Source of the DNA: Eledone cirrhosa
Taxonomy: Eukaryota
Direction of reading: 5' to 3'
NCBI GenBank assembly: GCA_964016885.1
Contig: OZ024748.1
Span: 43,214,001 to 43,278,000, forward strand
DNA length: 64,000 nt
The position numbers were made by a program, and so were the translations under genes. The notes beneath the pieces were generated by a model. That model was not told the origin of the DNA, made no database searches, and saw only the letters and a program-made list of their open reading frames with translations. This document shows positions 9,876-39,142 of this stretch, piece after piece (the stretch's first letter is position 1; the number at the start of each line of letters is the position of its first letter).

Positions 9876-10001
9876 TATATATACACTTATATATATATAT
9901 ATATATATAACGAAGGAAATGTGGTAAGGAACCAGGTGGACCATAACGCACCAAAGTACTCAATACTTGAGGTAGTAGAGTGGGTAATAGGAACCAGTAA
10001 G

Positions 10002-10095
10002 ACCCCGACAGCTGAGCTCAAGCCGTTTCGACGGCTAATTCTGAACTAAATGAAAATTTATCCTGGTATTTAAATAGCCGATCTTCTCAAGGGGT
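10002..10095 (-). ncRNA. Type I hammerhead ribozyme, U3-A8 core variant, extended stem II
   Basis: acccc-TTGAGAA-gatcggcta...tagccgtc-GAAA-cggct(tgagctc)agctGTC-ggggt; all three stems pair. Confidence 0.7.
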
Positions 10096-11197
10096 AATTC
10101 CATATATGGTCAAAGTGATTGTCAAAAATCAGTAGTAATTCTGTGGTTGCAAATTAGTAGGGGAGATGGTGGCTAAACCTGCCAGTAGGAGAAAGAGGGG
10201 AGGGGGTGGAGTAGACCCAATCAAGCGTTGGTAGTGCCAGCTACAGCTGGGCATGAGGTCAAAGAAGATACAGGGGGGGGGGAGGAAGTCGGAACGGTAG
10301 GTAGAACAATGGGGGGTAGAAATAGGAAAGAAAAAATACTGAGAGTGAAGAAAAGCAAATAAGTGTAAAGAAAAAAGTAAAGTAAATTAAATTCTACGAC
10401 CTAGGTGTCAGGCTATTGTTAGGCTAGAATAAAATAAAGAAAGAAAGAAAGAAGTAAATAAATAAATAAATAAATAAATAACGAAATAAGTAAAAGAACT
10501 AGGTGGGACGAATTAGGCAAGGACCCTTTTAAGAGGTATAAGTACGTAAATGATACGGTGACGGGTCAACAAAAGGGGCCAAAATACTAAAGAGACTACC
10601 ACGAAATAAACAATAAAGGCTTCCATCCCGGGCCAGCAACGACCCAGTGCAGCAAAGTGAACTTGTACGAGATAATAGTTCTGAGTCCCGAGAAAAATAT
10701 ATACTAATGCTAACTCTAAAAGATCTAAAACAAGCTACATGAAGGTTCGTACGAAATAAAGGTAGAATACGGAGAAATAAATTCAGAATCCACCCCGCCC
10801 AGAAGAAAAGCGAAGCAAGAAATACTGAAACGAAAAAATAAAGCATAAGTGCCACTAAGAAATATAGAGGGCACAGAGAATAGTGGGAGCGGTCGGAAAA
10901 AGGGGGCAAGTATCCGGGGTCTAAGCCAACTGCTATAAAGGGCGGAGTCCGCCAAATCTATCATAGACTAGGGGAGGGGGTGGTGGGGGTACTAAGGCTA
11001 CATGGGGCCAAAGGGCAGCCTCGGGTGGGCGAGAAAAGACGCCGACAAAGGAGAAGAGCTGGGGTAGAAGGACAAAGGAGAGAGGGGGGAAGGAAATAAA
11101 GGAAGCGATAAAAGAATACAAAGAAGATCTTACGTCTTCCTTGGCAAGCAGGGGTTACCCATTGCAAAATCGGCAAGTGGGGTGTTATAGCCCTAGT

Positions 11198-13135
11198 CTA
11201 ACCCCCCCCCGGGTCATTATGGGGTTTGAGGGCGAGGTAAGTCCTACGCAATCTATGTTTACATGCAGTAACCAGTTCATCTTTCTTGTTTAGGAGTTGG
11301 TCCGTCGAAAACAGCATTTGTAAAGTTTCCTCCGAGCATAAATTGCACGGACGGCGTCCTCCCGTGTAAGAATTGGCTCTGGACAGTAATCTCCAAGTGA
11401 GATCATAGGTGATGTTGTTGTCCTTGAGGTCCCATATGTGGCCCGAAAGTGTAGTGGCGTGACGCCGGGCCGGGTTTCGGAAGGTATGTCTATGTTGGTA
11501 TAGCCGGGTCTTGAAGTCACATGCGGTAAGTCCTATATAGGCTTTGTTGGAGGTATCCGTCCTCACGTTGCACTGGTAGATCACATTACGGTCTCTGCAT
11601 CTATTGTCGAGTGGGCAAATAGATCTATCCGGGCAGTTACACCTCCTGGTCGGTTCTCCACTGCTGTTTAGGTTATTTCTGCCATCGGGGTTGAGTTTTT
11701 TGTTGTTAGAGGAGACGATGTTTTGTGCGAAGTTTGGTGTAGTGCTGTAAGAGAGTTTGATGGTATTTTTGTTAATTATGTTGTGGTGTAATGGGAAGTG
11801 TTTTTCAATGAGCCTAAAGAATAGTTTCCCGATGGGAGTAGTCACCTCTGCGTTGTGGGGAGGATTGAACCATGTTACATTGCGTGAGCGGCGGTGTCTC
11901 CTGCTGGTTCCGCTAATGGGAGCTGGACAGTAGGATATTTCCTCCCGGAAACCACTCCGCTTGAGGGCCTGGTTGTAATAAGGCGCATGTTCATCGAATA
12001 TCCGCTCATTAGCTGACAAACGGGATATGCGGAGGGAGATGTTTTTGACCAGGTTGTTTGTGATGTTCCTAGGATGGTTTGATCGGCGGTGGATGTAGTG
12101 CAGATTGTCATTAGGTTTCCTGTATGGGTAGTACAGGTCGTTTTCGAGGTCGAGGGTCACGTCCAGGAAGTTTACTCGGGTCAGGGACGTTTGTAGGGTT
12201 ATTTTAAATCCCCAGTCGCGGAAGAATCTGATTAATTGTTTCCGGACCCGATCTGTACTACTGGGGTTGTACCCTTTAAGGGTAAGGAGCCCATCATCAC
12301 GGTACAATCCACCACCGAATGCAGGAAACATATCAGTGAGTTTGGCTATTAGGAATAATCCTATAAGATCAGTGACCTCCGCCGAATCCGTGGCGCCCAT
12401 GCTGACGTCGAAGGGTGAGTCGGGAGCTCTTTTTATCCATTTAGAGTCGTCAAAGAGTAAGACTGTCTTCCTGGCGTGGAGGATGATTTTTCTTTCCTGG
12501 TCGGTGATGGGCACGAGTGTTTCGGCGAAGTCCAAGGCGGCAGTAAGTAGCGGTAAGGTGATTGAAGCATAGTAGCTCTCTATGTCGAACTGTATGAATT
12601 TAGTTTCTCGTTTATCCTCCATATTGCTGAACCAGGAGATTACTTCCTGGGTGTTGATCCATAGGCTAAGTCGGGTGTGTTGCTTGACTTTTGGTATCAC
12701 GCGGTCTAGGATTTTTTTGCTGATTCTCCCTATGTCGGACTTCGTTGGGTTAATAAGCCTGATAGAGGGTTTACGGTCAAAATCGGATTTATGGTCCTTC
12801 AGTGTGAAGTATGGTGTCCGTGGGTCTAGAGGTTCCGTGCGGTCGGCGACCCCGAGGCTGGAGGTGATTTGTTGTCCATCTCGATTTATGTCCTCGATGC
12901 AAGAGTGGTTGGCCTTTTTATAGGTGGAGTTTAGGCTGCTCCTGATCAGTGTGTGGTATCTGTCAGGGTTGACAAAGTATAGGTTCCCAGTTTTATCCGA
13001 ATGCACCATGATGTCATTTGTGTTATCATACTCTGTTAAGTTGCTACGGAGTGTTTGTAGGAATCGGTTGTGTCTGGGTTTAAATTTAATGTTCTTGACC
13101 AGTTGGAAGAGGTCATTCTCGAAGGGTGCGAGCAA
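11198..13135 (-). CDS. PLE reverse transcriptase + C-terminal GIY-YIG endonuclease (N-terminally truncated)
   Basis: FDIESYY, MGATDS, GGLYRDDG, FLDVTLDL, SNHP; CNCPDRSICPLDNRC Zn motif; VIYQC...YIG; CNLC. Confidence 0.92.
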   Translation of the reverse strand: MLAPFENDLFQLVKNIKFKPRHNRFLQTLRSNLTEYDNTNDIMVHSDKTGNLYFVNPDRYHTLIRSSLNSTYKKANHSCIEDINRDGQQITSSLGVADRTEPLDPRTPYFTLKDHKSDFDRKPSIRLINPTKSDIGRISKKILDRVIPKVKQHTRLSLWINTQEVISWFSNMEDKRETKFIQFDIESYYASITLPLLTAALDFAETLVPITDQERKIILHARKTVLLFDDSKWIKRAPDSPFDVSMGATDSAEVTDLIGLFLIAKLTDMFPAFGGGLYRDDGLLTLKGYNPSSTDRVRKQLIRFFRDWGFKITLQTSLTRVNFLDVTLDLENDLYYPYRKPNDNLHYIHRRSNHPRNITNNLVKNISLRISRLSANERIFDEHAPYYNQALKRSGFREEISYCPAPISGTSRRHRRSRNVTWFNPPHNAEVTTPIGKLFFRLIEKHFPLHHNIINKNTIKLSYSTTPNFAQNIVSSNNKKLNPDGRNNLNSSGEPTRRCNCPDRSICPLDNRCRDRNVIYQCNVRTDTSNKAYIGLTACDFKTRLYQHRHTFRNPARRHATTLSGHIWDLKDNNITYDLTWRLLSRANSYTGGRRPCNLCSEETLQMLFSTDQLLNKKDELVTACKHRLRRTYLALKPHNDPGGG

Positions 13136-13504
13136 GGGGTATTTACTTCTTTCTTTCTTTATTTATTTTATTCTAGCCTAACAATAGCCTGACACCTAGG
13201 TCGTAGAATTTAATTTACTTTACTTTTTTCTTTACACTTATTTGCTTTTCTTCACTCTCAGTATTTTTTCTTTCCTATTTCTACCCCCCATTGTTCTACC
13301 TACCGTTCCGACTTCCTCCCCCCCCCCCGTATCTTCTTTGACCTCATGCCCAGCTGTAGCTGGCACTACCAACGCTTGATTGGGTCTACTCCACCCCCTC
13401 CCCTCTTTCTCCTACTGGCAGGTTTAGCCACCATCTCCCCTACTAATTCGCAACCACAGAATTACTACTGATTTTTGACAATCACTTTGACCATATATGG
13501 AATT

Positions 13505-13598
13505 ACCCCTTGAGAAGATCGGCTATTTAAATACCAGGATAAATTTTCATTTAGTTCAGAATTAGCCGTCGAAACGGCTTGAGCTCAGCTGTCGGGGT
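13505..13598 (+). ncRNA. Second copy of the U3-A8 hammerhead, in the inverted pLTR
   Basis: Same sequence as 10002-10095 on the opposite strand; predicted cleavage after GTC at 13593. Confidence 0.7.
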
Positions 13599-13655
13599 CT
13601 TACTGGTTCCTATATATATATATATATATATATTTACACATACACACACACACAT

Positions 13656-13834: not shown

Positions 13835-15774
13835 ATTATTGGGGGGAGGGGGAATTAAATTTATTAGTGAGAAATAATAAATATATATAGTTTTCATGGA
13901 ACATAGAGTGATAACCTGAAGTTAAAGCATTATATATGTTTACTTAATGGTATCAGTTTTAGGAAATAATAGTTGTAAGAAGGAAAGCAAAATTATGTAG
14001 TTCATCAGTAGTAGAATATTAATTATAGGTTAACTAAATTAAAAATAGTTTATATATTAATTTCTAAAGTGTATATTAATTAGGTTTATAATATTTAAAG
14101 CAGAATTATATAGTTCATCAGTAGTAGAATATTAATTATAGGTTAACTAAATTAAAAATAGTTTATATATTAATTTCTAAAGTGTATATTAATTAGGTTT
14201 ATAATATTTAAAGGTTTTTCTCAGTTTATGATTACATGATATTATTAATTCCTGTCGCTTATTTAATAGGATATCCTTAGATTTCATTATTTCAAAAAGT
14301 TCTTGGGAACATAATCTACATTCATATCTACTATTTTGATAAGGGGTGGCCCTTTTGAGCACACTCCAGGTCAGGTCATAATCTATATTCCTCTTTCTAT
14401 AACTATTAATTATTTCAGCTAGAGATGTTGTATTAGCTAGTGCGGAATTTTTAAAACTATGTTTGTGGGTATTAAATCTTACCTTAAATTTGTTAGAGGT
14501 AGCTCCTATATATGAATAAGTTGAGTCCTTAGTGTTAACTTTACATTTATATACTAGGTTATTAACAAGGCAATTTCCTTTTAATGGACAGTTTGCCTTG
14601 TTTCTACAGTTACAACTTTTCGTGAATCCTGTATCTGAGGAGATATTATGGTTAGTTTGATGTACTGGTGGTATACTCATGGTTTTTTTTACATTTATAT
14701 GCATTATAGGCACTTATATTTTGTTTTATGTTTTTGGTTGTTGAGTAGGAGAATTTAACCGTTGATCTATTTAAAATTTGATGGTATTTGTGGTTTGGCG
14801 GGAAGTTTTTCTCTAGGATATTAAAGAATTTTTTAGGTATATTATCCTTAATTTGTAAATTAAATGGAGCATTATACCAAGTAACTCGTCTATTACGGTT
14901 TCGATGTTGTTTATTGTTTTTATAGGATGCATCCTGATGTTTATTAAGAGAATTATTGTTAATGACCTCACCACACACATTTTTAGTTAGATTTATTGAT
15001 TTAGGTGTTTTAGCTTGTTTATTAGGAGTTTTATTATTAACATTTATTAGAGTTGTAGGATGAGTAGTTTTTTGAGAGTTACTATACTGTATAATAGAAG
15101 AGTTAGAGAAATTTGGTTTTATGTTGGTGTTTTGGGGTATAGTGTGAGTGGTATTTAGGTGTGTATGTTTCATTTGGTGTTTGTTGGTAATATTAGGTTG
15201 TATGTTTGTAGTGTTATTGGTAGAAGGTATATATACTAATCTATTTTTGTGGCCACTTCTAGCTAGAGCTTCGTTATAAAAGGTCGCATTTTTATCAAAT
15301 ACATCTTGGTTAGACGAAAGGTTAGAAATTCTAAGTGATATATTATATGCAAGGTTTTTAAGGGTAGATTTAGGGTGATTAGATTGTGAGTGGATGTAGT
15401 GTAAATTTGGGTTGGGTTTATGGTAAGGTTGTAGATACCTGTAGATAAGTCATATGTTATATCTAGGAAATTAACTACTTTACTTGTGTTTTCAAATGTA
15501 ATATCTAGACTATAATAGTCTTTAAGGAAAATTCTAATAAGCTTTTTATTTTTTTCTATCTCTGAGAGGCTAAGGTTATTGGAAAGAAGAAGACAGTCGT
15601 CACGATATAAACCACCTTTAAGGTGGGGAAAGAAAGCATTTATGTTAAAAAGAAGAAAGAGGCCCACAAGATCAGTAATTTGGGCAGAATCGCTTGAGCC
15701 CATAGTAATATCGAATAGATTACTATATGTGTTTCTGGTCCAGTATTCATTCTGAAATTCCAATAGTGTTAGTC

Positions 15775-15777
<3 letters not shown>
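13835..15777 (-). pseudogene. Penelope-like element PLE2 (Naiad-type), 5'-truncated and frameshifted
   Basis: Three ORF pieces (15263-15763 MGSSDS/YRDD/FLDITY; 14652-15173 linker/VTWYNAPF; 14189-14713 CNCRNKANCPLKGNC, LVYKC..YIG, CRLC); 113-bp tandem duplication around the stop; flanked by (TA)n. Confidence 0.88.
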
Positions 15778-15835
<58 letters not shown>

Positions 15836-16047
15836 TCAGGTTTGAGGTTCACCACTGTATAGAGCTGGTCTATTCCGTATGGTCAATCGTAATGCAATTA
15901 GAGAGTACTCAACGTAAGGCAGTTCAACCGTCTTTGTTTTTGTAGTTGGTGGTGCTATTACGGAGTTAAATATTATAATGAAATGATCATAGTATAATAA
16001 ACCTTTCAAGGATTTATACAAATCCAGCCTCCTGTCATTTCATTATA

Positions 16048-16050
<3 letters not shown>
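15836..16050 (-). mobile_element. Minimal fold-back PLE remnant
   Basis: 16-bp inverted repeat tattataatgaaatga (15970-15985) / tcatttcattataata (16035-16050), ~135-nt tail to the left, (TA)n on both sides. Confidence 0.5.
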
Positions 16051-16138
<88 letters not shown>

Positions 16139-16321
16139 TATAGGATTATCCAAGATGCAGTGATGGTTAATTACTACACTGGATATGGTTGACGTACGGT
16201 AAGAGGTTACTCTACGAGTTATGGAAGAATTGTTCAAGAAACTTAGTTCCTGATCCTTCAGTATTCCGGAGTGTATATAAAGAATGAATAATAACAGGTA
16301 GACATCATAAAAAGGTAGTTT

Positions 16322-16446
16322 ATTCCGTGTGCTTACAAGTGTTTCCACGGTGGTACTGCAGCCTAGTTCCGCTACGTGCAAATTCACAAGAATTTGCAGA
16401 ACTCGAATATCCAATGCTGTGACCACTGTTTCCTCAGAGCAGAATG
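16322..16446 (-). ncRNA. Type I hammerhead ribozyme with branched ~85-nt stem II
   Basis: Minus: attctgct-CTGAGGA-aacagtggt...tgcaaattc(ttgt)gaatttgca...accaccgtg-GAAA-cacttGTA-agca(cac)ggaat. Confidence 0.75.
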
Positions 16447-16937
16447 GTAAATATACAATGTAAAAACCCTTAAGTGGGGTTGTTGGGGGAAGATAGAGTG
16501 GAACAGGAAGAGAGAAAAGTAGGGAAGATGGAGAGAGAAGGAAAGATATGCAGGGGTTGGAGAAGTAGGAGAGAGTGGCTTGTAGATATCTTAATCAAAA
16601 TGTTATGGTAGGGGTTTTATTAGTTACTTTTGGAGAGATGTGTAGATAGTTGAGGTCTGAATTATTTATTGCCCCAGAGGTCAAGTTCATAGATGTTGAG
16701 AGGGAGGTAGGTCAAAGGTGAGAGAGAGAGAGAGTGTAATGGATGTAGAGAGAGATATATAGGTAGAGAGGGGACAGATAAAGTATATGTGGTGAGTGAA
16801 CTTTTGGTTTTGTAGTAGTAATCTAGGAATTATACTGAGTTACCATGTATAGTGATAAGCAGTGTATTGTCTTGTAGTGTGGGGGAGAAGAGAAGGTTGT
16901 TAGCTAGAAAGTGGTGTTGTAGTTACGGGTTCGAATG

Positions 16938-19265
16938 TTAAGTTATTTTATAGTGAGAGAATTTAGCTTTTAGTTTGTGGTTGCAGTATAATGATCGTTC
17001 AATTCTATCGTTAAGTAGTTTGTTTTTGGATTTTAGTATGTAAAATAGCTCAAGGTTACATAACCTGCAGTACTTCAAACCACTCCGATATGCATTTGCG
17101 CTGGAAAGTATATCCCATTTTAAGGTGAACTGTTGGTTATGTTCACGGAGTTGCCAGGTCTTGTTGGCGAGCGTAGTCACAAAACGGTGATTCTGATGTT
17201 TGATTGAGAATCGATGACGGTACCAGCGAGATTTAAACGATGTGGTGGTTGATCCGATATAATACCATTTCTGGTCGTCCGATTCAACCGTGCATTGGTA
17301 AACAATGTTGGACTTTAGGCATTCATTCTGCAATGGACATCTTTCAGGTAGATGGCAGTTACATGCTTTGTTGTGGGTAGCGGGTATACCATGGATAGGT
17401 TGTGATAGCGGTACAGGTGGGTTGTGCAATACCCGTCTCCCATTTAGTGGTTGGGAGGCAGATATTGCGTTCTGCCCACCTGTTACTAAAATGTTTTGTT
17501 TTGTAGAGTTGTTTAATTGCCTTAAGTTAAGTTTTTTTATGTATGCTTCAAGGTTTGGTGCCGTGGAGTATGATAGTCTAATAGTTTTGGAGTTCAGAAT
17601 TTTGCTGTACTTATGGGAACTAGGGAAGTGTTTATTGATTAATTTAAAGAATGAAAGAGATAGTTTTGTACTAATCGAGGCATTAAAAATAGGATTATAC
17701 CAGATATACTTTCTACAACGTGATTTATTTGGTGGTGAACTTCTATTATTAGTATGTCTGGTAGTATAGTGTGTGTGTGCTTGTGTTTTAGTCCCCCGGT
17801 TACGTATACCTTGATTACGTGTAGAGCTATGTGTGTTGTGGAAATTACTATCGATGTATTCTATTGTATCCCGGTGGTCAGCATTCCTTAATGCATTATT
17901 GTAGTATTCAGCATGTTCGCTAAAAATATCAGAGTTAGACGATAGGCGAGAGATTCTAAGAGAAATACTCCGGGGAACTGATTTGATCATGGAGAGTGGG
18001 TGGTTAGAGTTAAAGTCAATATACGTAAGGTTCTCATTTACCTTGTGGAAGGGTCGTATCTGTCCGGTATTTAAATTAAGAGTTACGTCCAGAAAGTTTA
18101 CTACCTTAAGATTGTATTCGTATGTTATTTTTAGGCCCAGTTCACTAAAAGATTTTCTAATATTTTTCCGTAGCCTTTCAAGATTTTGGTTATTCAAGTT
18201 ATTAACTAATAAGAGCCCGTCATCTCTATATATCCCCCCCTGTAGATTACTAAATCTACTATGTAATATGTGGGCTATGTAAATTCCCACGAGATCCGTG
18301 ACCTCCACCGAGTCGTTGGAACCCATGGTAATATCGAAATTTGTGGGTCTGTCCTTACGTTCCCAGTAGCAGTTATCGAACTTAATAATGGTTTTTCTAG
18401 CCTCGAGAATAATATTAATTTCTTCCTCCGTTAGGTCGGAATTGGCCTTAGCAAACGATAGGGCCTTACGTAAAGTGCTTGGTGAGATTGAAGAGTAGTA
18501 TTCGTCTATGTCAAATTGTATAAACTTAGATTTATTCTTATTCTTAACATTATTAAACCAGCGAATTGCTTCGCTAGTGTTGCCCCATAATTTAATTTCA
18601 ATTTTCTTTTTCACTTGAGTTATTACTCTGTCAAGTATATGTTTGCTAATTTTCCCTATGTCTGATTTAGAAGGGCATATAAGTCTAATCTTAGGGTTAG
18701 AGTCAAAATTTACCTTATGGTCCTTCAGGTTGAAGGTGGGGGTAGCGGGTATAATCGGCTCGGTTCTATCGTCTATCTTGAGATTCTTTACCACTTTGTA
18801 TGCCTCGTTGTTAATATTTGCTAGCGTAGTTTCATTTGTTTTTCTATATTTTTTGTGTAGTTCGTTGCGTATGAAGTTATTATACGTATCGATATCCATG
18901 GTATACACGTTAGAAGTCTTGTCAGCTTTCACAACAATTCCATTGGTATTTTGCAATCTTCGGAGTAGTGCTTTCATGTTGTTCTGCAGCTCATTATTTC
19001 TATGTCTGTTGAACTTAATGTTCATGGTAGTTTTCAATAAGTCCTGTTCGAAAGCTTCGAGGTGAGGGTTTGTAGGTGGGTTTTTACATGATTTAAAACC
19101 ATATGATTCAGACGAGTGATTGGCGCGTCCTTTATCGAAGTGGAAAGCTTTCCATCGTACACGCCGAATGAAGTCGTTACTGCGTTGAATCATACTGAGA
19201 ATATATTCCCTTTTGTTAGGTATAGGTATGTTTTTAAGTGACATACCTATATGATGCCTTTCCAT
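16938..19265 (-). CDS. Intact PLE polyprotein: RT + CxCx5Cx5C Zn motif + GIY-YIG endonuclease (775 aa)
   Basis: ATG to stop uninterrupted; SLKNIPIP, KADKT, FDIDEYY, MGSNDS, GGIYRDDG, FLDVTL, SNHP, CNCHLPERCPLQNEC, IVYQC..YYIGST, CRLC. Confidence 0.95.
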   Translation of the reverse strand: MERHHIGMSLKNIPIPNKREYILSMIQRSNDFIRRVRWKAFHFDKGRANHSSESYGFKSCKNPPTNPHLEAFEQDLLKTTMNIKFNRHRNNELQNNMKALLRRLQNTNGIVVKADKTSNVYTMDIDTYNNFIRNELHKKYRKTNETTLANINNEAYKVVKNLKIDDRTEPIIPATPTFNLKDHKVNFDSNPKIRLICPSKSDIGKISKHILDRVITQVKKKIEIKLWGNTSEAIRWFNNVKNKNKSKFIQFDIDEYYSSISPSTLRKALSFAKANSDLTEEEINIILEARKTIIKFDNCYWERKDRPTNFDITMGSNDSVEVTDLVGIYIAHILHSRFSNLQGGIYRDDGLLLVNNLNNQNLERLRKNIRKSFSELGLKITYEYNLKVVNFLDVTLNLNTGQIRPFHKVNENLTYIDFNSNHPLSMIKSVPRSISLRISRLSSNSDIFSEHAEYYNNALRNADHRDTIEYIDSNFHNTHSSTRNQGIRNRGTKTQAHTHYTTRHTNNRSSPPNKSRCRKYIWYNPIFNASISTKLSLSFFKLINKHFPSSHKYSKILNSKTIRLSYSTAPNLEAYIKKLNLRQLNNSTKQNILVTGGQNAISASQPLNGRRVLHNPPVPLSQPIHGIPATHNKACNCHLPERCPLQNECLKSNIVYQCTVESDDQKWYYIGSTTTSFKSRWYRHRFSIKHQNHRFVTTLANKTWQLREHNQQFTLKWDILSSANAYRSGLKYCRLCNLELFYILKSKNKLLNDRIERSLYCNHKLKAKFSHYKIT

Positions 19266-19502
19266 ATTAATGCCGTGTGTCGATGTGGTTGCTCAACTAT
19301 GTAGGAGACGATTATTAGGTATAGGATTATCCAAGATGCAGTGATGGTTAATTACTACACTGGATATGGTTGACGTACGGTAAGAGGTTACTCTACGAGT
19401 TATGGAAGAATTGTTCAAGAAACTTAGTTCCTGATCCTTCAGTATTCCGGAGTGTATATAAAGAATGAATAATAACAGGTAGACATCATAAAAAGGTAGT
19501 TT

Positions 19503-19627
19503 ATTCCGTGTGCTTACAAGTGTTTCCACGGTGGTACTGCAGCCTAGTTCCGCTACGTGCAAATTCACAAGAATTTGCAGAACTCGAATATCCAATGCTG
19601 TGACCACTGTTTCCTCAGAGCAGAATG
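19503..19627 (-). ncRNA. Second copy of the PLE3 hammerhead (upstream pLTR)
   Basis: Matches 16322-16446. Confidence 0.75.
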
Positions 19628-20557
19628 GTAAATATACAATGTAAAAACCCTTAAGTGGGGTTGTTGGGGAAGATAGAGTGGAACAGGAAGAGAGAAAAGT
19701 AGGGAAGATGGAGAGAGAAGGAAAGATATGCAGGGGTTGGAGAAGTAGGAGAGAGTGGCTTGTAGATATCTTAATCAAAATGTTATGGTAGGGGTTTTAT
19801 TAGTTACTTTTGGAGAGATGTGTAGATAGTTGAGGTCTGAATTATTTATTGCCCCAGAGGTCAAGTTCATAGATGTTGAGAGGGAGGTAGGTCAAAGGTG
19901 AGAGAGAGAGAGTGTAATGGATGTAGAGAGAGATATATAGGTAGAGAGGGGGCAGATAAAGTATATGTGGTGAGTGAACTTTTGGTTTTGTAGTAGTAAT
20001 CTAGGAATTGTAGAGTTACCATGTATAGTGATAAGCAGTGTATTGTCTTGTAGTGTGGGGGAGAAGAGAAGGTTGTTAGCTAGAAAGTGGTGTTGTAGTT
20101 ACGGGTTCGAATGTTAAGTTATTTTATAGTGAGAGAATTTAGCTTTTAGTTTGTGGTTGCAGTATAATGATCGTTCAATTCTATCGTTAAGTAGTTTGTT
20201 TTTGGATTTTAGTATGTAAAATAGCTCAAGGTTACATAACCTGCAGTACTTCAAACCACTCCGATATGCATTTGCGCTGGAAAGTATATCCCATTTTAAG
20301 GTGAACTGTTGGTTATGTTCACGGAGTTGCCAGGTCTTGTTGGCGAGCGTAGTCACAAAACGGTGATTCTGATGTTTGATTGAGAATCGATGACGGTACC
20401 AGCGAGATTTAAACGATGTGGTGGTTGATCCGATATAATACCATTTCTGGTCGTCCGATTCAACCGTGCGGAACTAGGCTGCAGTACCACCGTGGAAACA
20501 CTTGTAAGCACACGGAATAAACTACCTTTTTATGATGTCTACCTGTTATTATTCATT

Positions 20558-20559
<2 letters not shown>

Positions 20560-20652
<93 letters not shown>

Positions 20653-20673
20653 CATATATATATATATATATGT

Positions 20674-20767
<94 letters not shown>

Positions 20768-20769
20768 AC

Positions 20770-20844
<75 letters not shown>

Positions 20845-20846
20845 CA

Positions 20847-20918
<72 letters not shown>

Positions 20919-20970
20919 ACATATATATATATATACATATATATACGTATATATATATATATGTATATAT
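20560..20970. repeat. (TA)n microsatellite
   Basis: Direct inspection; another tract at 21455-21997. Confidence 0.95.
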
Positions 20971-21451
20971 TCTCTCTCTCTCTCTCTTACTGCTCCCCCA
21001 TTCTCTCTGTTTCTCCTACTTTCTTTCGCCCCCTCTGTCATGTCAGTTAACTCTTCCTCACACTTCCACTCACTCACTCACTGTTTCTCCTCTCCCCACT
21101 TCACCCCGTTCGCGAAGAAAGCAATTTCTCTCTTTTCTCACATTGCATTCGTTCGTGAAAGGTCTGTTTTCTAAGCGCTCATATATTCACCTAGCTTATG
21201 CTAACAGAATAACTATGAAGCTTGTCTCCTTCCTTCTACGGTTAGCTCTACTCTTTGTTGTTTTCTTGTTTCACTCGCTTTACGCGTTTTAATTGTCCTA
21301 ATAACTTAATTTAGTTATTATTGCACCGACGTGAGGTATATGATTTTTAATGCAATGAAATATCTATGATCGTCGGCAAATCACTGATGAGGGACTTATT
21401 TTATTACATGTTATCCATGTGCTTCCAGCAGTATTTTTCTCCCCATTTTAT

Positions 21452-21539
<88 letters not shown>

Positions 21540-21553
21540 AATATATATATATG

Positions 21554-21596
<43 letters not shown>

Positions 21597-21597
21597 G

Positions 21598-21680
<83 letters not shown>

Positions 21681-21681
21681 G

Positions 21682-21712
<31 letters not shown>

Positions 21713-21737
21713 GTATATATATATGTATATATATCTG

Positions 21738-21802
<65 letters not shown>

Positions 21803-21905
21803 GTATATATATATGTATATATATATGTATATGTATATATATATGTATATATATATGTATATGTATATATATATGTATATGTATATATATATGTATATGT
21901 ATATA

Positions 21906-21997
<92 letters not shown>

Positions 21998-22150
21998 GTG
22001 AAGGCGTGTGGCTGAGTGGTTAGTGAATTTGATTCGCAATCGTAAGGTTGTGAGTTCGATTCCTGGACCAGGAATCGAAGGAGACGGGATGTGTATTGGT
22101 GTAATGGTAGCACATTGGTTCGACTCCCATGTACGGCAACACTCATCTTT
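21998..22150 (+). mobile_element. tRNA-derived SINE head followed by a second tRNA-like unit
   Basis: A box tggctgagtgg, B box gttcgattcc; then tggtgtaatgg ... ggttcgactcc. Confidence 0.55.
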
Positions 22151-22228
22151 TTCCATTTCTCCGAGGGTTATAAACCCCACTATCAGGCTAGAAATTTCTT
22201 TAGTCTAAAATACAGTGAAAGCTTATAA

Positions 22229-22283
<55 letters not shown>

Positions 22284-22314
22284 CATATATATACATATAT
22301 ATACATATATATAT

Positions 22315-22725
22315 ACTCTATATAAAATATATACAGTACCTAGTAGTGCTATCTTTTGTATGCTATATATATATATAAGTCTTGTGGTACTCTATATAAT
22401 ATAAATACAGTACCTTGTAGTGTTATCTTTTGTATGCTGTATATATATATATGTAAGTCTTGTGGTACTCTATATAATATAAATACAGTACCTTGTAGTG
22501 TTATCTTTTGTATGCTGTATATATATATATGTAAGTCTTGTGGTACTCTATATAATATAAATACAGAACCTTGTAGTGTTATCTTTTGTATGCTGTATAT
22601 ATATGTGTGTGTAAGTCTTGTGGTACTCTATATAATATAAATACAGTACCTTGTAGTGTTATCTTTTGTATGCTGTACATATATCTGTAAGTCCTGGGCT
22701 TTGGGCTATGTATTATTATTATTTT
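22315..22725 (+). repeat. Right half of the split interspersed repeat, with ~78-bp tandem units
   Basis: gtaagtcttgtggtactctatataatataaatacagtaccttgtagtgttatcttttgtatgct x4-5, ending gtaagtcctggg...(tta)n as at 56447-56482. Confidence 0.75.
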
Positions 22726-22999
22726 AGTAAATGCAATCTGGTGAAACACACCAAGCCGAAGACTCGGACATACAGACGACAAGTTAAAGAAGAATACATA
22801 ACACGATGTGGTTCATGGTTGATGAGAGAATGTAAGAAAACAGTGTAAGTAATTAGATAGATTAATAGATTGGTGTAATCGGTGGAGTGTCGGACTATTA
22901 TCTTGTGGTATTTAGTTACGACTCTTTAAGTTTTGATTTTGTATTCCATCTTGTCATCTTTGTGGAGTTGATTAAATCAGGCATGAACTGGAATCGATG

Positions 23000-23520
23000 T
23001 TAAACCATTTTGGTACCAAACCAACTGAAACTGACTCTGGTTTGAACTATTTTGGTACCAAACCATCTAAACCCGACACTGGTTTAAACTATTTTGGTAC
23101 CAAACCATCTAAAACTGACCCTGGTTTGAACTATTTTGGTATCAAACCATCTAAAACTAACCCTAGTTCCATTATACTAAGCCGTTTATTTCAAAATGTT
23201 TATATTTATCTAAAAAAACTTTCCATTATAATTTGATGAAAGAACCTTTCAGAAGTTAGGCTCCAAACTTAATAATGAAATAGTTATACTTTCAATTTAA
23301 ATATAGGTTAACTGTTAACTTAAAAAAACAGTCTTATGTACGTTCAAGTCCATAATTTGGCCAACATTTCTACAAATAAGATGGTTTATTAAGTTATCTT
23401 CCAAACACCAGCTTAATAATGAGAAAGTTAGTTATATCAGTAAATTCCTCTATGTTCTAGAAAATATTCAAAATTATTTCTAAAATCCCAGACAGTATTT
23501 TTCATTAGAGATGTAACAAA
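23000..23520. mobile_element. Degenerate TTAA-ended MITE-like element with 42-bp terminal tandem amplification (x4)
   Basis: Starts ttaaaccattttggtaccaaacc; 23395-23450 resembles the reverse complement of 63215-63275. Confidence 0.5.
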
Positions 23521-25116: not shown

Positions 25117-27078
25117 CATCATCATCATCGTTTAACGTCCATCTTCCACGCTAAGCATGGGTTTAGGCGAGAATTGTCCTACTTGAGGCAAGATTGGTTG
25201 TCTTGCTCGTATAGTACTGTCTTGCAGGTTTTCTACGGCTGGATGCCCTTCCTAACACCAACCACGTCTACAGTGTGGACTGGGAGGTTTTTACCGTGTT
25301 ACCTACACGGCCAAATTACAGCGTGTTTTTTTGTCGTGACTCCTACACGACCTCATTTATTTAGGACTGGATGTTGTGGTACCAACATAACTTTACATCG
25401 AAAGGGGTGGTGTAGATTGGGTGAGGTAGTGGGACGGGGTGTATTTTGGTAAGAGGTGCCTACTGACTGTAGGTTTCGCTTTGTACTTAGGCAAGGCGGG
25501 TCTTCTGTATTACTGCGTAGCGCCAAAGATCTCGGTCCAGTGACATTGTCTTGGAGAGGTGTAAGTGTGTAAGGTCGGAATTTATCAAGTCGTCCCAGGT
25601 TTTTCTGGGTCTGCCTGCCTACTCCGTACCTACCGTCTATTTTGATTGCCCTGCACTTTTTTATACAGCTGTCGTCTTTCATGCGCATCACGTGACCATA
25701 CCAACGTAGTCTTCTCTCGAGTAAACAGCATTTGAGACCTCTTATTCCTAATTTCTCACTTAGTTCATTTATGCTTTGCCGTTCACATATATTACTATTA
25801 CACATCCAACGGAGCATGCAAGCTTCGTTCCTCTCCAGTCTGCGTAGATCCTCTGCACAAAATGCCCATGTCTCACTGCCATGTAATATTGCTGTTCGTA
25901 TGCAGGCATCATACAGCCTGCCTTTCATTTTTAGAGAGAAACCTTTAGCGGCCAATAGTGGTATAAGCTCTCTGAACTTTTTCCATCCCATTCTGACTCT
26001 AGCTACTGTACTTTCAGAGCACCCTCCACCACTGCTGATTTTGTCACCCAGGTAACGGAAGGTGTCCACTATTTCTGGGCAATGGAATGAGCTAGTATTC
26101 TGTGGGCACTTGCTACTTATTGCACCTGAGCACCGGCCACATATAAAATCTATATTCTTAGTTAGCTTACCTGTGATCCCACTACATCTTTTATGCACCC
26201 ATACTTTGCATTTGGGACATAAAATGGAGTTTCTGCCTACTCCTTTCCTACACACTGTGCATGGCCATTTCCCAGAGGGGACTAGTGCCCTGTTTTCCTT
26301 CCTACATACTAGAACTTTAGTCTTAGACAAGTTAATTTTAAGGCCTTTTGATTCTAGGCCATGCTTCCATGTTTGGAATTTCTTCTCTAGTTCAGCCATT
26401 AATTCAGCTATGAGCGTTAAATCATCTGCGTATAGAAGTTCCCATGGGTAGCCGGTCTTGAACTCCTCTGTTATAGCCTGAAGGGCAATAATAAATAGTA
26501 GGGGGCTAAGGCGGAGCCCTGATGAACACCAACTTTTACGCTAAACTCTTCACTATATTCGTTGTTAATTCTAACCTTGCTGACTGTTTCTTTATACATG
26601 GCTTGTATAGCTCTCACAAGCCATTCATCAACACCTAGTTTTCTAAGGGCCATACCAGATAATCGAGCGGGGTACTCTGTCAAAGGCTTTCTCCAAGTCA
26701 ACAAAAGCTAAGTATAGGGGTTTACTTTTAGCTAGGTACTTCTCCTGTAGTTGTTGTACAATGAAAAGAGCGTCTGTTGTACTTTTACCTGATACAAACC
26801 CGAATTGCATTTCATCTAGATCAATTCGCTCTCTGATTAGTTGCGCTATAACTTTTTCTGTGACCTTCATGACCTGTTCAATTAATTTAATGCCTCTATA
26901 GTTTCCCCTATCTAGGGCATCGCCTTTACCCTTGTAGCAGTTAATGATGATGCTGCTACGCCAGTCATTTGGTATGACCCCATTCTGTATGACTTGGTTT
27001 ACTATCCGGGTGACCATAGTGTGTCCCACTGTTCCAGATGCTTTCAGTATTTCAGCAACTATTTCCGACGGCCCAGCC
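25117..27078 (-). mobile_element. 5'-truncated RTE-clade LINE (RT + PHD-like finger), frameshifted
   Basis: NYRGIKL, QFGF, FVDLEKAFD, GVHQGS, YADD; CTVC..CPKC..HKRC..CGRC; (TGA)n tail at 25117. Confidence 0.9.
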
Positions 27079-27109: not shown

Positions 27110-29584
27110 CAGTGGGTCCTCGATATACGGTAGTTCTTTATCCGGTAAATTCACAGATACGGTTTTGGGTAATTACTACCATCAATTCTATTTCCGGTAA
27201 AAAAATTCACAAATACGGTTTTTCGTCGTGTTTTGTTTATATTGTACCGTAGCGCCACCTGTAATAAGCAATAAATTTTCCCTTGAAACTGGCTGCTATT
27301 CGAATTCTAGGAAAATTGTGTTACTACTGCTATTGTACTAACCGACCGTACCAAGAAACTGGCCAATCACGAGCGAGTTCAGATATCGGTCGATGACGTC
27401 ATAACTCTTAACCGATAGCTTCAGTTCGGCAAACTAGCGTGTCCTCTCAGTGAGAGAATTTTTGCCGAACTGAAGTCATCAGTTAAAAGTTATGACGTCA
27501 TTGAAAGTAAGAGAAAACCCAACGGCGTGTTTTTGGAGCATAATTATCACGGCATATCTTATAACCTCATATCTCATGGCCCCAAACGTCCTGCGAATAT
27601 TTCTGATGCAGATGGAAAGGCCAAACGCATGAGGAAGAGCCTGACTTTGGAGATAAAGCTGGACATTTTGAAAAGGAAGCAACAGGGGAAAAGTACGTCC
27701 GCCATAAGTCGTAACTTAGGCATAGCCCAGTCTACAGTCTGGACTGTTTTTAAAAATAGTGAGGCTGTCAAAAAGGCTGGGGAGAATGCTACGAGTCAAC
27801 AGAGTAAATTGTTGACCAAACATCGTGAGTCGATTATGGAAAGGTTGCTCAAAATTTGGATCGACGACCAAAATCGTCAAAATATGCCTCTGTCTTTAAA
27901 TGTAATCAGCGAGAAAGCATTGTCCATTATTGACAGGCTCAAGACTGAAATGGGGGTGGAGGACTTTGTATTCAAGACAAGCAAAGGCTGGTTTGATAAG
28001 TTCAAACGACGTTCCAGTCTTCACAACATAAAAGTTACAGGTGAGGCTGCCAATTCCGACAAAGAGAGTGCTGAAAAATTCAAGGCAGTGTTAGAGAAAT
28101 GCATTGCAGAGAAGGGCTACAGCAAAAAACAGGTTATTAATTATGATGAAACAGGACTCTATTGGGAAAAGATGACCAGTCATAATTATACTGACAAGGA
28201 GGAGAAAAGTGCGAAGGGGTTCAAAGCCTCAAAGGACCGCGTTATTCTGTTACTTGGAGGGATTGCAGAAGGAGATTTAAAGCTAAAGCCACGATTCTGA
28301 AACTCCCAGAGCACTCAAGGGGTTACTGAAGCAATATCTACCAGTGATATGGAAGTCTAATAAGAAGGCATGGCTGATCACTTCAATTCACCAGGATTTT
28401 TTCACCTCATATCTGTCACCAACCCTTAAGTAATATGCATAAGCTAACAACATTGCCAACCGTTTTCTGCTATTAGTGGACAACGCTCCCAGCCACCCAC
28501 GGGCAATGGAAGACTGGTCAGAAAATATTGAGGTTCTGTTTCTAACCCCCCCCCCCCCCCCCCAACACCACAGCTCTCATTCAGCCGATGGATCAAACAG
28601 TCATCAAAACATTTAAGGCATACTACCAGCGGAGAACCATGCAGTAGTTGATAAAGGGCACAGATGGGCCTGACAGGCCCACAATGAGGGAATGGTGGAA
28701 ATTGTACAACATCAAGCACGGCTTGGGAAGAGGCATCTTGGGAAGAAGTGAAGCAGTCTACCATGAACTTGGCCTGGAAGAAATTATGGCCAGCATGTGT
28801 GAATGACTTCCAATGCTTTGCTGAGGACATTGGTGCGATAAAAAAAGATATTGTAAATCTCTGCCATAGAGCTGGCTTCGATGGTGTTAATGATGATGAT
28901 GTGCAAGACCTTTTGAAAAGCCACGCTGAACCACTCTCCAGTGGTGAACTCATAGAACTAGACAAGGCGATACAGGAGACAGAAATAGAAGAAAAGGAGG
29001 AAGAAGAACCTGTGCGTGGCTTGGACATAAAAACTCTAAGAGAATGTCTCGGGAGTATCGAAACAATCTTAGAAACCCTGAAGGAGCGTGATCCCAACTC
29101 TGCTAGGAGCAGCAAAGTGACTCAAGATGTCGAGAAAAGCGTCAAGATTTACCAAGAAAAGTATGAAGCCAAAAGAAACACTGCCAAACAGTCCTCCATC
29201 TACTCTTTCTTCAAGCCAGTCACACCTGCCAACCGTGCTACAGCTGGCCCTTCAACATCCACTGCAGTCAACGAGTTGGTTGGTTTTGAGCCTCCCACAT
29301 CCTCCCCTGCCAACTCAGTCCAAGATGAGTAAGGGCTGAAACCCAAACTGTCCCTTAGCCTCGGGAGGGACAAATGAAGTAACACATTATCTGATGGACT
29401 AGGCGGCATGTGTAAGGTACAGTAAATAGAAAAAAACATTATTTCTTTTCTGTAGGGATGACTTTTTCGATGTGCTGGAACGCATCCCTATCTATTTCAT
29501 GTTATAATGAGTTCTTTATACAGTAATTCGATAAACGGTAAGGGTTTCAGGAACGCATATATACCGTATATCGAGGACTCACTG
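27110..29584 (+). mobile_element. Full-length Tigger/pogo-like (Tc1/mariner superfamily) DNA transposon
   Basis: 23-bp TIRs cagtgggtcctcgatatacggta / taccgtatatcgaggactcactg (1 mismatch), TA on both sides. Confidence 0.92.
27576..29332 (+). pseudogene. Disrupted Tigger/CENP-B-like transposase
   Basis: RKSLTLEIKLDI HTH, SKGWFDKFKRR, NYDETGLYW, LLVDNAPSH, QPMDQ; frameshifts and stops between ~28290 and 28750. Confidence 0.88.
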
Positions 29585-34030: not shown

Positions 34031-34204
34031 TATATATATTTACATTCATATATATATATAAATGTAAATATATATGTATATACATATATACTTAACAAAT
34101 TAAAGACCGTCACACATAGCTTGCGTTGTTTGATATCAAAAAGGCGTAAGAAAATATTTTAGTAAAAAGACGGAAATGTTGTGAAGAAGATATGTTTGAA
34201 TGTT

Positions 34205-37321: not shown

Positions 37322-39142
37322 TTACTTGAGTATTTCAATATTGATATCAGGAGCCATAGACAAATGTTTCGATTCACAAGATCGATAAAAACGTACATTT
37401 CTTGCGCGAAGAATCTTCCAGCTTGACAAAATATGTAATCCTTTATCTCCATCAATTTTGATATGATCTACATCAGAAAGACCGTCCCTGATCCACATGG
37501 AACGAAATCGAATAAATGGTAAAAATGTTGAAGTATTGACCATCGATATGTTGTAGTAGAGGATCTGGGTTTGTAAACGATTGCTGATAATTTCAATATT
37601 AGCCGATGAATTGTCATAATATTGTATGAATGCTATAAATGTTGGTTCAGTTTGGACAATTTTGATGATTCTAATGTCTGCAAATGGTCGAAAACTTGAC
37701 AAGTTAGTTGGTCCAAGAATTACGGATGAACCAAATGGAATCCAATCAACACCATGAACTAACGGTGGAAGTGTCCGGGCATTACCGTCTTGATAGAGAA
37801 CAAATATTTGTGACGTGTTACTTGATCCAAGAACACGTTTACTCAATCGAATGAAATCAATATTATCGAACTTATTACCTTCTAGAATGACACTCATAGT
37901 TCTAGGTCGTCGCCACCAGAAATCGATATTAACACCTTCTAATGCAGTATTGAGACTTCGATATAATGGTATCACTGTTTCTCCCCGTTCTGGTCGTCTA
38001 ATTAAACTAATCTCATCAATAATTACTAATTGATCTTCTTCAGAAACCAATATCAGGAATATAGCATTGATATTACTTTCTGACCATGTGAAGTCAGGTA
38101 TTGACCAAATTCCTGTTGGTGCCTGTGCAGAAAATGTCCTGTGTTGTAATTCAGAAAGCTTACTATTTCTACCATTATATGTCATATTTATAAAGAGAGG
38201 TCGAGTAATTTTCTTTAGTTTTACTGTAAAGTTCGATCCAATATCGGCATCGATCACTCCACTCATTTTACCTTTCAGCGGAAAAAATATAATAAATTTA
38301 TATAACCTTAATTTTGTTAATCTTATTGTGAACGAATTGATGTTCATGACTACATTATGTTCTGGGTCAATTGGTTTACCTTTTAACAACCAAAGCTGTG
38401 GTGATGAGAGGCTGAAACAATCCTGGAATATTGCATTGCGATTGTTAAGCAGACTTTTGTAACGTGGATATGAAGGTGTGATACGATATCTTTTTACCTG
38501 AGCATGAATAAAAGCTATGTCAATGTTGTCCTGCTCTGCACATTTAGTCGGGAAACTTCGCTGGATTAAAGTTACTAGATCAGATCTTCGAGTGTTGTCT
38601 TTCTTCGTTGGTTCTGGTTTGTCCAGTTCTGGGAAACAACTCAATCTACACGACATCAAATCTTCAGAAATATAAGGATTATCTGTCATTATAGTCAAAG
38701 AATCAATTTCGATTCCTTGTGTCTCATTTAAATTAATCTGAATATCCAAAAAATGAATACCTTCTGTTAAAAATAAAGGTTTCCTAGCTGGTCCCGAGTC
38801 ACGAAATTCATTCCATAGTTGGCCGCCTTTGGAACGGCCTGATATAGAGAATGACTGCAACAATTGGTTATTAATATTAACTAGAACAACAGTTGAGTTT
38901 CCATCAATAGAATATCGAAATCCCATCATACGAATGGAAGAATTACTAGCAATACACATGTCCAACCGAATGGTTTTCCCTGGTAATAAATAAACAGCTT
39001 TCTTATTCGAAGCATTTGATCGACTATGAACCTTTAAACCTCCAGGTTGTTCTTCAGCTTCAAAAACCAATTCCGAAGTTTCTGCTAATACATAGTTTAT
39101 GGTGATAAATAAAAAGAAAGTAGTTTGCCAACAAACGAACAT
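37322..39142 (-). CDS. Uncharacterised secreted protein, 606 aa, N-terminal CBM6/CBM35-like domain (paralogue A)
   Basis: Single 1.8-kb ORF in AT-rich DNA; hydrophobic signal peptide; FEAE..SNASNKKAV..RYS.DG..LW..G.H.L.I..GIEIDSL; colinear with 45046-46863. Confidence 0.85.
   Translation of the reverse strand: MFVCWQTTFFLFITINYVLAETSELVFEAEEQPGGLKVHSRSNASNKKAVYLLPGKTIRLDMCIASNSSIRMMGFRYSIDGNSTVVLVNINNQLLQSFSISGRSKGGQLWNEFRDSGPARKPLFLTEGIHFLDIQINLNETQGIEIDSLTIMTDNPYISEDLMSCRLSCFPELDKPEPTKKDNTRRSDLVTLIQRSFPTKCAEQDNIDIAFIHAQVKRYRITPSYPRYKSLLNNRNAIFQDCFSLSSPQLWLLKGKPIDPEHNVVMNINSFTIRLTKLRLYKFIIFFPLKGKMSGVIDADIGSNFTVKLKKITRPLFINMTYNGRNSKLSELQHRTFSAQAPTGIWSIPDFTWSESNINAIFLILVSEEDQLVIIDEISLIRRPERGETVIPLYRSLNTALEGVNIDFWWRRPRTMSVILEGNKFDNIDFIRLSKRVLGSSNTSQIFVLYQDGNARTLPPLVHGVDWIPFGSSVILGPTNLSSFRPFADIRIIKIVQTEPTFIAFIQYYDNSSANIEIISNRLQTQILYYNISMVNTSTFLPFIRFRSMWIRDGLSDVDHIKIDGDKGLHILSSWKILRARNVRFYRSCESKHLSMAPDINIEILK

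What the first reader, a model, noticed from the sequence alone, without database searches (positions are those of the whole stretch)
16137..20562. Apparently intact, young Naiad-type PLE with two ribozymes bracketing a ~3.18-kb unit
Seen: uninterrupted 775-aa ORF; near-identical direct repeats (~1.15 kb) forming a 1.4-mer; hammerheads at 16322 and 19503 spaced 3181 nt apart; the 3' tail (16137-16275) equals the 5'UTR in front of the ATG; a 94-bp inverted arm at the 5' end. Inference: double cleavage would release a unit-length RNA that could circularise, and more-than-one-round reverse transcription would explain the partial tandem. Stem II carries a perfect nested hairpin tgcaaattc-ttgt-gaatttgca.
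Basis: partly seen in the sequence, partly recalled or inferred. Interest (0 to 1): 0.7.

Follow-up and report, generated by a model that had tools for sequence, protein, structure and literature searches.

The report
Twin-ended Hydra-type Penelope retrotransposon
This is a real, young, intact copy of a known kind of jumping gene (Penelope-like, Hydra type rather than Naiad), and every two-armed copy examined with both ends intact has one long and one short end, which likely records copying of its RNA from both cut DNA strands; the proposed circular RNA is an older, still untested idea.

Summary
The anatomy is real: a 775-aa ORF, 1.15-kb direct repeats (99.3%, period 3181), two hammerhead motifs, a 99-bp inverted arm and (TA)n on both sides. 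The label is wrong. The RT comes first and the GIY-YIG nuclease last, with the RWK, DKT, CxCX5C, CxxC and CxH motifs and no CCHH, so this is Hydra clade, not Naiad. The family is young (15 of 42 ORF-spanning segments intact; purifying selection). Most informative: in 91 of 91 two-armed insertions with both outer ends intact, one arm ends at a 'long' site and the other 137 nt earlier at a 'short' site. A neighbouring family does the same. The arms share haplotype and usually meet at microhomologies. This best fits priming of both target strands at two fixed RNA sites. The circle model was proposed in 2014 and is neither shown nor excluded here: 26 of 50 over-unit arms run past the upstream ribozyme, but no arm ends pile up at the cut. 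The 'perfect' hairpin is a rare allele (2 of 179). This scan's earlier notes reached the twin-priming reading on other DNA, including this genome.

The parts
16053..16136 (.). (TA)n target microsatellite, left flank
16135..16273 (-). 'Long' 3' end with the 137-nt tail (unit positions u3045-3181, u = 19318 minus window position); outer end of the main arm
   Evidence: 488 exact long ends in the genome, control 0
16274..16279 (-). 'Short' site TATATA (u3039-3044): read through in this arm, used as the outer end of the inverted arm
   Evidence: 1264 exact short ends in the genome, control 0
16322..16445 (-). Type I hammerhead motif, copy 1: core CUGAGGA 16437-16431, 85-nt stem II region, GAAA, 3-bp stem III with 2-nt loop, predicted cut GUA at 16334/16333; A.G at the first stem II pair. 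Activity untested
16135..17293 (-). Downstream copy of the direct repeat (pseudo-LTR plus ORF 3' part)
16938..19265 (-). 775-aa ORF: RWK (37-39), DKT (115-117), RT core with YRDD, linker CNCHLPERC, C-terminal GIY-YIG (IVY..YIG) without CCHH, then CRLC and CNH
19266..19317 (-). 52-nt leader between the unit junction and the ATG
   Evidence: 46 exact junctions in the genome
19316..20469 (-). Upstream, 5'-truncated copy of the direct repeat (u2025-3181), containing a copy of the tail at 19318-19454
19503..19626 (-). Hammerhead motif, copy 2; predicted cut 19515/19514
20468..20566 (+). Inverted arm (u2946-3044) ending at the short site; joined to the main arm at a 2-nt GC microhomology (20468-20469); holds only the 3' half of the hammerhead
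20561..20970 (.). (TA)n-rich right flank (perfect run 20561-20616, then interrupted)

Best explanation
This is an intact, young Hydra-type Penelope-like retrotransposon inserted in a (TA)n repeat as two head-to-head arms, likely made when its enzyme nicked both target strands and primed reverse transcription twice, once at a short site and once at a long site 137 nt further 3', probably on one RNA, with the two copies likely joined through a few shared bases. Shown: anatomy, motifs, the one-long/one-short rule, shared haplotypes, microhomology at the centre. Inferred: double nicking and double priming (both strands were cut and extended by another PLE in vitro), use of one RNA molecule, and end joining. 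The 1.36-mer needs a template that continues past one unit. Re-use of the same source sequence is supported, but circle, homologous strand transfer and read-through of a longer parent cannot be told apart from DNA. The ribozyme is likely a weak, assisted cleaver and is probably not what defines the insertion ends, which lie 60 and about 200 nt downstream of the predicted cut.
For: One long plus one short end: 29 of 34 length-selected loci, the other 5 being one-ended. Over all 164 regions, 91 of 107 inversion-centre rows were long+short, 0 long+long, 0 short+short, and 16 had an arm ending elsewhere. Dropping 2 duplicates leaves 89; two more read by eye give 91. This holds although 93 regions were chosen for having a short end and short ends outnumber long ends 1264 to 488. 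The neighbouring family (43% aa identity) shows the same rule with an 82-nt tail in 7 of 30 loci where both ends were visible, and none showed long+long. Arms overlap by 1-10 nt in 62 of 89 centres (rough BLAST overlaps). Shared-SNP discordance between inverted arms is 65 of 5318 (1.2%) against 8.3% between loci. Inner ends coincide within 20 nt in 16 of 89 against 4.8 by permutation (all). 32 of 89 cannot be made by one cDNA folding back on itself. In vitro, an anole PLE cuts and extends both strands and starts RT at two internal sites that bound the tail (PMC11167929).
Against: In that in vitro study the start site did not differ between strands. 57 of 89 centres, this locus included, are also compatible with fold-back, and coincident inner ends fit fold-back as well as a shared RNA end. 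Shared haplotype shows one source locus, not one molecule; 27 of 65 informative loci have at least one discordant site, and later gene conversion is not excluded. A test for RNA-editing marks shared by both arms was negative: A>G in 4 of 33 shared versus 22 of 147 unshared private variants, p=0.79. Single-armed insertions with TA on both sides exist (about 12 of 93 by eye), so the second priming is optional or leaves under 4 nt. No nick positions or target duplications can be read inside (TA)n.
Confidence: 0.62

Rival explanations
1. Circle model (first reader; Cervera and de la Pena 2014): both hammerheads cut, the 3181-nt monomer is ligated, and RT runs more than once round the circle. It is compatible with twin priming and concerns only the template.
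For: Both priming sites lie 60 and about 200 nt after the cut, so a cut linear monomer could template only stubs, yet 0 of 50 second-round ends and 2 of 83 nearby ends fall at the cut (about 3 expected if uniform). 26 of 50 over-unit arms run upstream of the ribozyme, the longest to 1.72 units, with a stop rate of 1.5/kb against 1.1/kb in the first round and no wall. Direct repeats are discordant at 17 of 1602 shared sites against 7.3% in controls, and 27 private variants are shared by both repeats, 2 of them at this locus. No two of 46 exact junctions lie one unit apart in the same orientation.
Against: The same data fit an uncut RNA with homologous strand transfer through its repeated end. 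The hammerhead fold (-29.4 kcal/mol without stem III) lies above the predicted minimum (-34.5), stem III is 3 bp with a 2-nt loop, and the youngest subfamily has A.G at the base of stem II (123 of 179). Covariation is weak. In the anole PLE, ribozyme mutants inserted normally and no reads ended at the cut. No arm reaches two full rounds.
Confidence: 0.3
2. Self-priming or fold-back: one cDNA (or an antisense template) folds back and copies itself to make the inverted arm, as proposed for rotifer Penelopes (PMC3846280).
For: It explains shared haplotypes and coincident inner ends (16 of 89). 57 of 89 centres are geometrically compatible, this locus among them. The short site TATATA is self-complementary and could anneal to the far target end.
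Against: 32 of 89 centres have a short-ended arm that extends beyond the long-ended arm in a way that neither order of simple fold-back allows; some long arms are only 9-20 nt.
Confidence: 0.18
3. Two independent RNPs from the same expressed locus act on the two strands, in an ordered reaction that uses the short site first and the long site second.
For: It accounts for the rule, for the excess of single short-ended arms and for occasional discordant arms such as L055 and L191.
Against: It needs an extra ordering assumption and does not predict coincident inner ends far from the hot zone (2349/2336, 2362/2364). Two apparent chimeras with the neighbouring family proved to be adjacent separate insertions.
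Confidence: 0.17
4. The tandem or the inverted arm is an assembly artefact or a product of later DNA rearrangement.
For: No read or contig spanning the locus was available; the TA flanks are hard to assemble.
Against: The two repeats differ at 5 places, and the same fixed outer ends with different inner breakpoints recur across many contigs.
Confidence: 0.03

Closest known systems
Hydra clade of C-terminal EN+ Penelope-like elements (Craig et al. 2021, PMC8557442; abstract, sections 3, 11 and 12, further passages, part 2 of 59 of the supplement and search hits in it)
   Same: Single ORF with C-terminal GIY-YIG; RWK, DKT, CxCX5C, CxxC, CxH; no CCHH; hammerhead near the 3' end, often with an unpaired first stem II position; (TA)n targets.
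   Different: Unit of 3181 nt against 'generally <3 kb'; stem II region of 85 nt, far longer than the short stems and 3-10-nt loops tabulated for Hydra families; 137-nt tail. The hammerhead differs from that listed for Hydra-1_oBim. The best of 662 database homologues are 33-42% identical among the 120 listed.
[quoted passage not shown] 2 legend; Pen2a_Av in PMC3846280, passages read)
   Same: Exactly this layout.
   Different: Here the one-sided tail is counted as a strict rule (91 of 91), the tail is 137 nt, and the proposed self-priming fails for 32 of 89 centres.
PAc, Poseidon-clade PLE of the green anole (Frangieh et al. 2024, PMC11167929; parts 1-2 of 4 and passages read)
   Same: Two internal RT start sites bound the tail; both target strands are cut and extended; AT-rich targets; hammerhead close to the start sites.
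   Different: Its start sites lie inside the ORF and are not homologous to the target, with no strand difference seen. Here the sites lie about 190 and 50 nt before the ATG, are TA-like, and are always split one per arm.
PLE hammerhead circle hypothesis and metazoan retrozymes (PMC4209133 and PMC7229834, passages read; bioRxiv 10.64898/2026.07.22.740005, abstract and outline only)
   Same: Type I hammerheads about 3 kb apart in the pseudo-LTRs; proposal of ligation to a circle and more-than-unit reverse transcription.
   Different: In the passages read, circles are shown for 170-400-nt non-coding retrozymes, not for a coding PLE unit.
LINE-1 twin priming
   Same: Works like it: the second target strand primes internally, giving an inversion joined by microhomology.
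   Different: In L1 the second site is variable and the two segments do not overlap. Here both sites are fixed, and only 20 of 89 long arms stop at or after the short site.
Naiad clade (PMC8557442)
   Same: (TA)n preference; tandem and inverted arrangement.
   Different: N-terminal nuclease, CxC linker, DKA, CCHH and no canonical hammerhead; none of these fits.

Membership tests
Hydra-clade PLE | Single ORF, RT followed by C-terminal GIY-YIG | tested here: met
   YRDD precedes IVY..YIG in alignment A1; homologue P0067 matches Pfam GIY-YIG at 599-639 of 718, above the cut-off; 2 of 14 members match. The window protein itself has no Pfam match above threshold
Hydra-clade PLE | N-terminal RWK motif | tested here: met
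   R37-W38-K39
Hydra-clade PLE | DKG modified to DKT | tested here: met
   D115-K116-T117, conserved in A1
Hydra-clade PLE | CxCX5C linker before the nuclease | tested here: met
   CNCHLPERC
Hydra-clade PLE | CCHH motif absent (no two Cys between GIY and YIG) | tested here: met
   One non-conserved Cys between IVY and YIG
Hydra-clade PLE | C-terminal CxxC and CxH around the conserved E and N | tested here: met
   CRLC..E..N..CNH (definition)
Hydra-clade PLE | Canonical hammerhead near the 3' end | tested here: inconclusive
   Core and stems I and III are present, but stem II is 85 nt and no Rfam model matched
Hydra-clade PLE | Insertion into (TA)n | tested here: met
Hydra-clade PLE | RT phylogeny inside the Hydra clade | not testable with these tools
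   No named Hydra, Naiad, Neptune or Penelope reference proteins were held as session sequences; 119 of 120 listed homologues are unnamed
Naiad PLE | N-terminal GIY-YIG nuclease | tested here: not met
   The nuclease is C-terminal
Naiad PLE | DKA motif and CCHH in the nuclease | tested here: not met
   DKT; no CCHH
Naiad PLE | No canonical-order hammerhead | tested here: not met
   A type I motif in canonical order is present twice
Active self-cleaving hammerhead | Conserved core boxes and three helices | tested here: met
   CUGAGGA, GAAA, GUA; stem I paired in 98.5% and stem III in 100% of cells over 17 variants. The variants were collected with a pattern that required most of the core, so this is partly circular
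Active self-cleaving hammerhead | Compensatory changes in the helices | tested here: inconclusive
   4 of 38 pairs change on both sides (275 of 500 shuffles reach this); covariation score reached by 3 of 500
Active self-cleaving hammerhead | Self-cleavage of the RNA | not testable with these tools
   Needs a bench assay

The most novel reading that the evidence does not exclude
A dimeric Hydra-type enzyme holds one 3181-nt ribozyme-made circular RNA, primes both strands of a nicked (TA)n at two fixed sites 137 nt apart on that circle, and runs both polymerases round it by strand displacement. One mechanism would then give the one-sided tail, the inverted arm and the partial tandem of PLEs, with L032 (both arms over one unit, ending at the same base) as its full expression. 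This would be a protein-coding retrotransposon that moves through a circular RNA.
Probability: 0.22. Interest if true: 0.78.

Novelty: new member of a known kind. Interest (0 to 1): 0.44.

Why it matters
How Penelope-like elements make their tandem and inverted insertions is named as an open question in PMC8557442, and the steps after priming are unvalidated in PMC11167929. This family gives a sharp, countable rule (one long and one short end per insertion), intact ORFs, a simple target and two exactly mapped start sites, so twin priming, single-molecule templating and the circle idea can be tested directly. The single locus is ordinary PLE anatomy. The rule sharpens a published qualitative remark, and this scan has noted it before in other families.

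Tried and rejected
Rfam scan of 14000-23000: only microsatellite-driven miRNA hits, no hammerhead. Pfam on the ORF and PDB with the alignment profile: nothing above threshold. Unconstrained folding of the ribozyme region: z -0.79, no hammerhead fold; forcing stem III with its 2-nt loop gave no valid fold in ViennaRNA. Sequencing runs: no RNA holder listed. Four runs of unstated kind, contigs only, one study, hold the family but span neither the locus nor its ends. ADAR-type A>G marks shared between arms (lead from e1-10280452): not found, inverted p=0.79, direct 4 of 27 versus 12 of 116, p=0.50. Pile-up of arm ends at the ribozyme cut (suggested for another family in e1-9504305): not found. 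Apparent chimeras between this family and its neighbour (L060, L147): adjacent mini-insertions. An apparent short+short pair on C1 near 126.63 Mb: the fetched region showed a short+long insertion (L114) with the second short end beyond it. A structure or dimer prediction was not run. In-print searches for the twin-priming reading: 'Penelope-like'+'twin priming' gave 3 unrelated listings, and searches returned only the papers cited or listings that I did not open. Subscription papers, such as Arkhipova 2006, were not searchable; supplements of the 2024 paper were not opened and those of the 2026 preprint are closed, and either could bear on this.
Full report
Observation. The coordinates hold. 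A 775-aa ORF lies at 16938-19265 on the minus strand. Direct repeats 16135-17293 and 19316-20469 are 99.3% identical (2 substitutions, 3 small indels), giving a 3181-nt unit and a 1.36-mer. The arm 20468-20566 is the reverse complement of 16274-16372 and joins the main arm at a 2-nt GC overlap. Both outer ends run into (TA)n. Unit coordinates below are u = 19318 minus window position. A type I hammerhead motif (CUGAGGA, 85-nt stem II region, GAAA, 3-bp stem III, GUA cut after u2984 = 16334/16333) occurs in each repeat. Rfam did not detect it.

Identity. The RT motif YRDD precedes the nuclease motif IVY..YIG. The protein has RWK, DKT, CNCX5C, C-terminal CxxC and CxH, and no CCHH. A homologue matches Pfam GIY-YIG near its C-terminus. 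These are the features given for the Hydra clade, while Naiads have an N-terminal nuclease and lack canonical hammerheads (PMC8557442). A tree with named references could not be built. The search found 662 homologues; the 120 listed are 33-42% identical and essentially unnamed, so this looks like an undescribed family of a described clade.

Youth and activity. The genome (G000, 3.0 Gb) holds dozens of near-full copies at 94-100% identity (34 of 6783 candidates scored). Exact patterns give 488 long ends, 1264 short ends and 46 tandem junctions (controls 0). 15 of 42 segments spanning the ORF keep at least 770 aa. Variants shared by four or more loci are 57 synonymous to 36 non-synonymous, against 188 to 469 for singletons (p=1.4e-9), the signature of selection during transposition. 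Current expression is unknown.

The end rule. I fetched 164 regions. 34 came from the length-ranked search. 93 covered the first 100 listed short ends on C1 (4 already held, 2 members of a segmental triplicate and 1 neighbour were not fetched separately). 7 were from 9 unpaired long ends. 30 were junction loci not yet held. In the first set, 29 of 34 have two outward-facing 3' ends, one at u3181 plus a few bases (long) and one at u3044 (short); 5 are one-ended. Over all regions a script found 107 inversion-centre rows: 91 long+short, 0 long+long, 0 short+short, 16 with an arm ending elsewhere. Removing a repeated row and a segmental duplicate leaves 89; L032 and L047, read by eye, make 91. Long arms can be as short as 9 nt. 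About 12 of the 93 short-anchored regions are single arms with TA on both sides, and about 16 are old or broken (by eye). The neighbouring family at 9905-13613 (43% aa identity) has its own short and long ends 82 nt apart. It shows short+long in the window copy and in 7 of 30 loci where both ends were in view, with no long+long (those loci were chosen for a long end).

Mechanism tests. Centres show 1-10 nt overlap in 62 of 89. Inner ends coincide within 20 nt in 16 of 89 (4.8 expected; 0 of 20000 permutations reach 16). Arms are discordant at 65 of 5318 shared polymorphic comparisons against 8.3% between loci of like age; direct repeats at 17 of 1602 against 7.3%. 32 of 89 centres cannot arise by simple fold-back in either order, while 57 can. 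Frangieh et al. showed that an anole PLE cuts and extends both strands and starts RT at two internal sites bounding the tail, with no strand preference, and that ribozyme mutants still insert (PMC11167929). I therefore favour two priming events, one per target strand and one per site, most simply on one RNA, followed by microhomology joining (0.62). Two ordered RNPs and fold-back are rivals. The one-sided tail itself is in print as a qualitative remark (PMC8557442 Fig. 2; PMC3846280, which proposes self-priming).

The circle. Both priming sites lie just after the cut, so a cut linear monomer could give only 60-200-nt stubs ending at u2985. Only 2 of 83 arm ends in u2855-3044 fall within 3 nt of it, and 0 of 50 second-round ends (the 50 were listed by hand). 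Templates are therefore uncut or re-ligated. 26 of those 50 arms run upstream of the ribozyme, up to 1.72 units, with a stop rate like that of the first round. No multi-unit array shows among the 46 exact junctions (collapsed or diverged arrays could be missed). So re-templating is likely, but circle and homologous strand transfer make the same DNA. The ribozyme looks weak: its fold lies about 5 kcal/mol above the predicted minimum, the youngest copies carry A.G at the first stem II pair (123 of 179; T.G 44; A-T 8), and covariation is slight. Mismatches at that position are common in the published Hydra table. The 'perfect' inner hairpin is an allele of this locus (2 of 179). I give the circle 0.3.

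Prior notes and verdict. After forming this reading I found that the scan had recorded twin priming for PLEs in at least 12 genomes, this one included (none by sequence). These are unchecked AI notes and not independent support. Verdict: a new member of a known kind. The locus is ordinary; the family is a good system for an open mechanistic question. Interest 0.44.

Noticed in passing
window 9905-13613 (-): A second Hydra-type family: 5'-truncated ORF 11198-13009 (603 aa, 43% identical), long end at 9905, inverted arm 13300-13613 ending at the short site, 82-nt tail, and a hammerhead with a UUGAGAA core (U3/A8 variant), 54-nt stem II and palindromic stem III loop.
   Followed up: partly
L060, L083, L147, L156, L159, L196, L220: About 200-bp head-to-head mini-insertions of that second family with inner ends near the same place (b3095-3119), some 25-50 nt upstream of its predicted cut, often sitting in the same TA run as the first family.
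   Followed up: partly
window about 14000-15780 (-): A third, frameshifted Hydra-type relic (YRDD, CNCX5C, YIG, CRLC, CNH), Asn/Thr-rich between RT and nuclease, with a 101-bp duplication at 14000-14213. Three such elements lie head to tail in adjoining TA runs between 9.9 and 20.6 kb.
   Followed up: partly
L032 (G000:C4:39640300-39650100): An 8.8-kb near-perfect palindrome: both arms exceed one unit and end at u1868; both ORFs intact.
   Followed up: partly
L186:4431-6450: Two short-ended segments in tandem without the tail (u2712-3044 then u1527-3044), as if RT restarted at the short site; the opposite arm ends about 29 nt beyond the usual long site.
   Followed up: no
L069, L076, L083, L085, L165, L169: Other hammerhead motifs in flanking DNA with long stem II regions (37-102 nt), so long stem II may be common in this genome.
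   Followed up: no
L080, L091, L097: Three older copies break off from the unit at the same point (u2696), two with near-identical upstream sequence: a possible internally deleted non-autonomous subfamily.
   Followed up: no
window 37322-39142 (-) and 45046-46863 (+): Two divergently oriented, single-exon paralogous ORFs of 606 and 605 aa, 38% identical, with signal-peptide-like N-termini and no Pfam family above threshold (weak CBM_6, E 0.078): a possible host gene family of unknown origin.
   Followed up: partly
window 27629-29332 (+): Tigger/pogo-like transposase remnant (CENP-B and Tc5 HTH domains).
   Followed up: no
window 25353-26399 and 52261-53196 (-): Two related non-LTR RT C-terminal fragments with an inserted PHD-like finger.
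   Followed up: no
window 34136-36973 and 22290-22690: A long short-period tandem array that reads as a spurious 945-aa ORF, and a five-copy 78-nt minisatellite.
   Followed up: no
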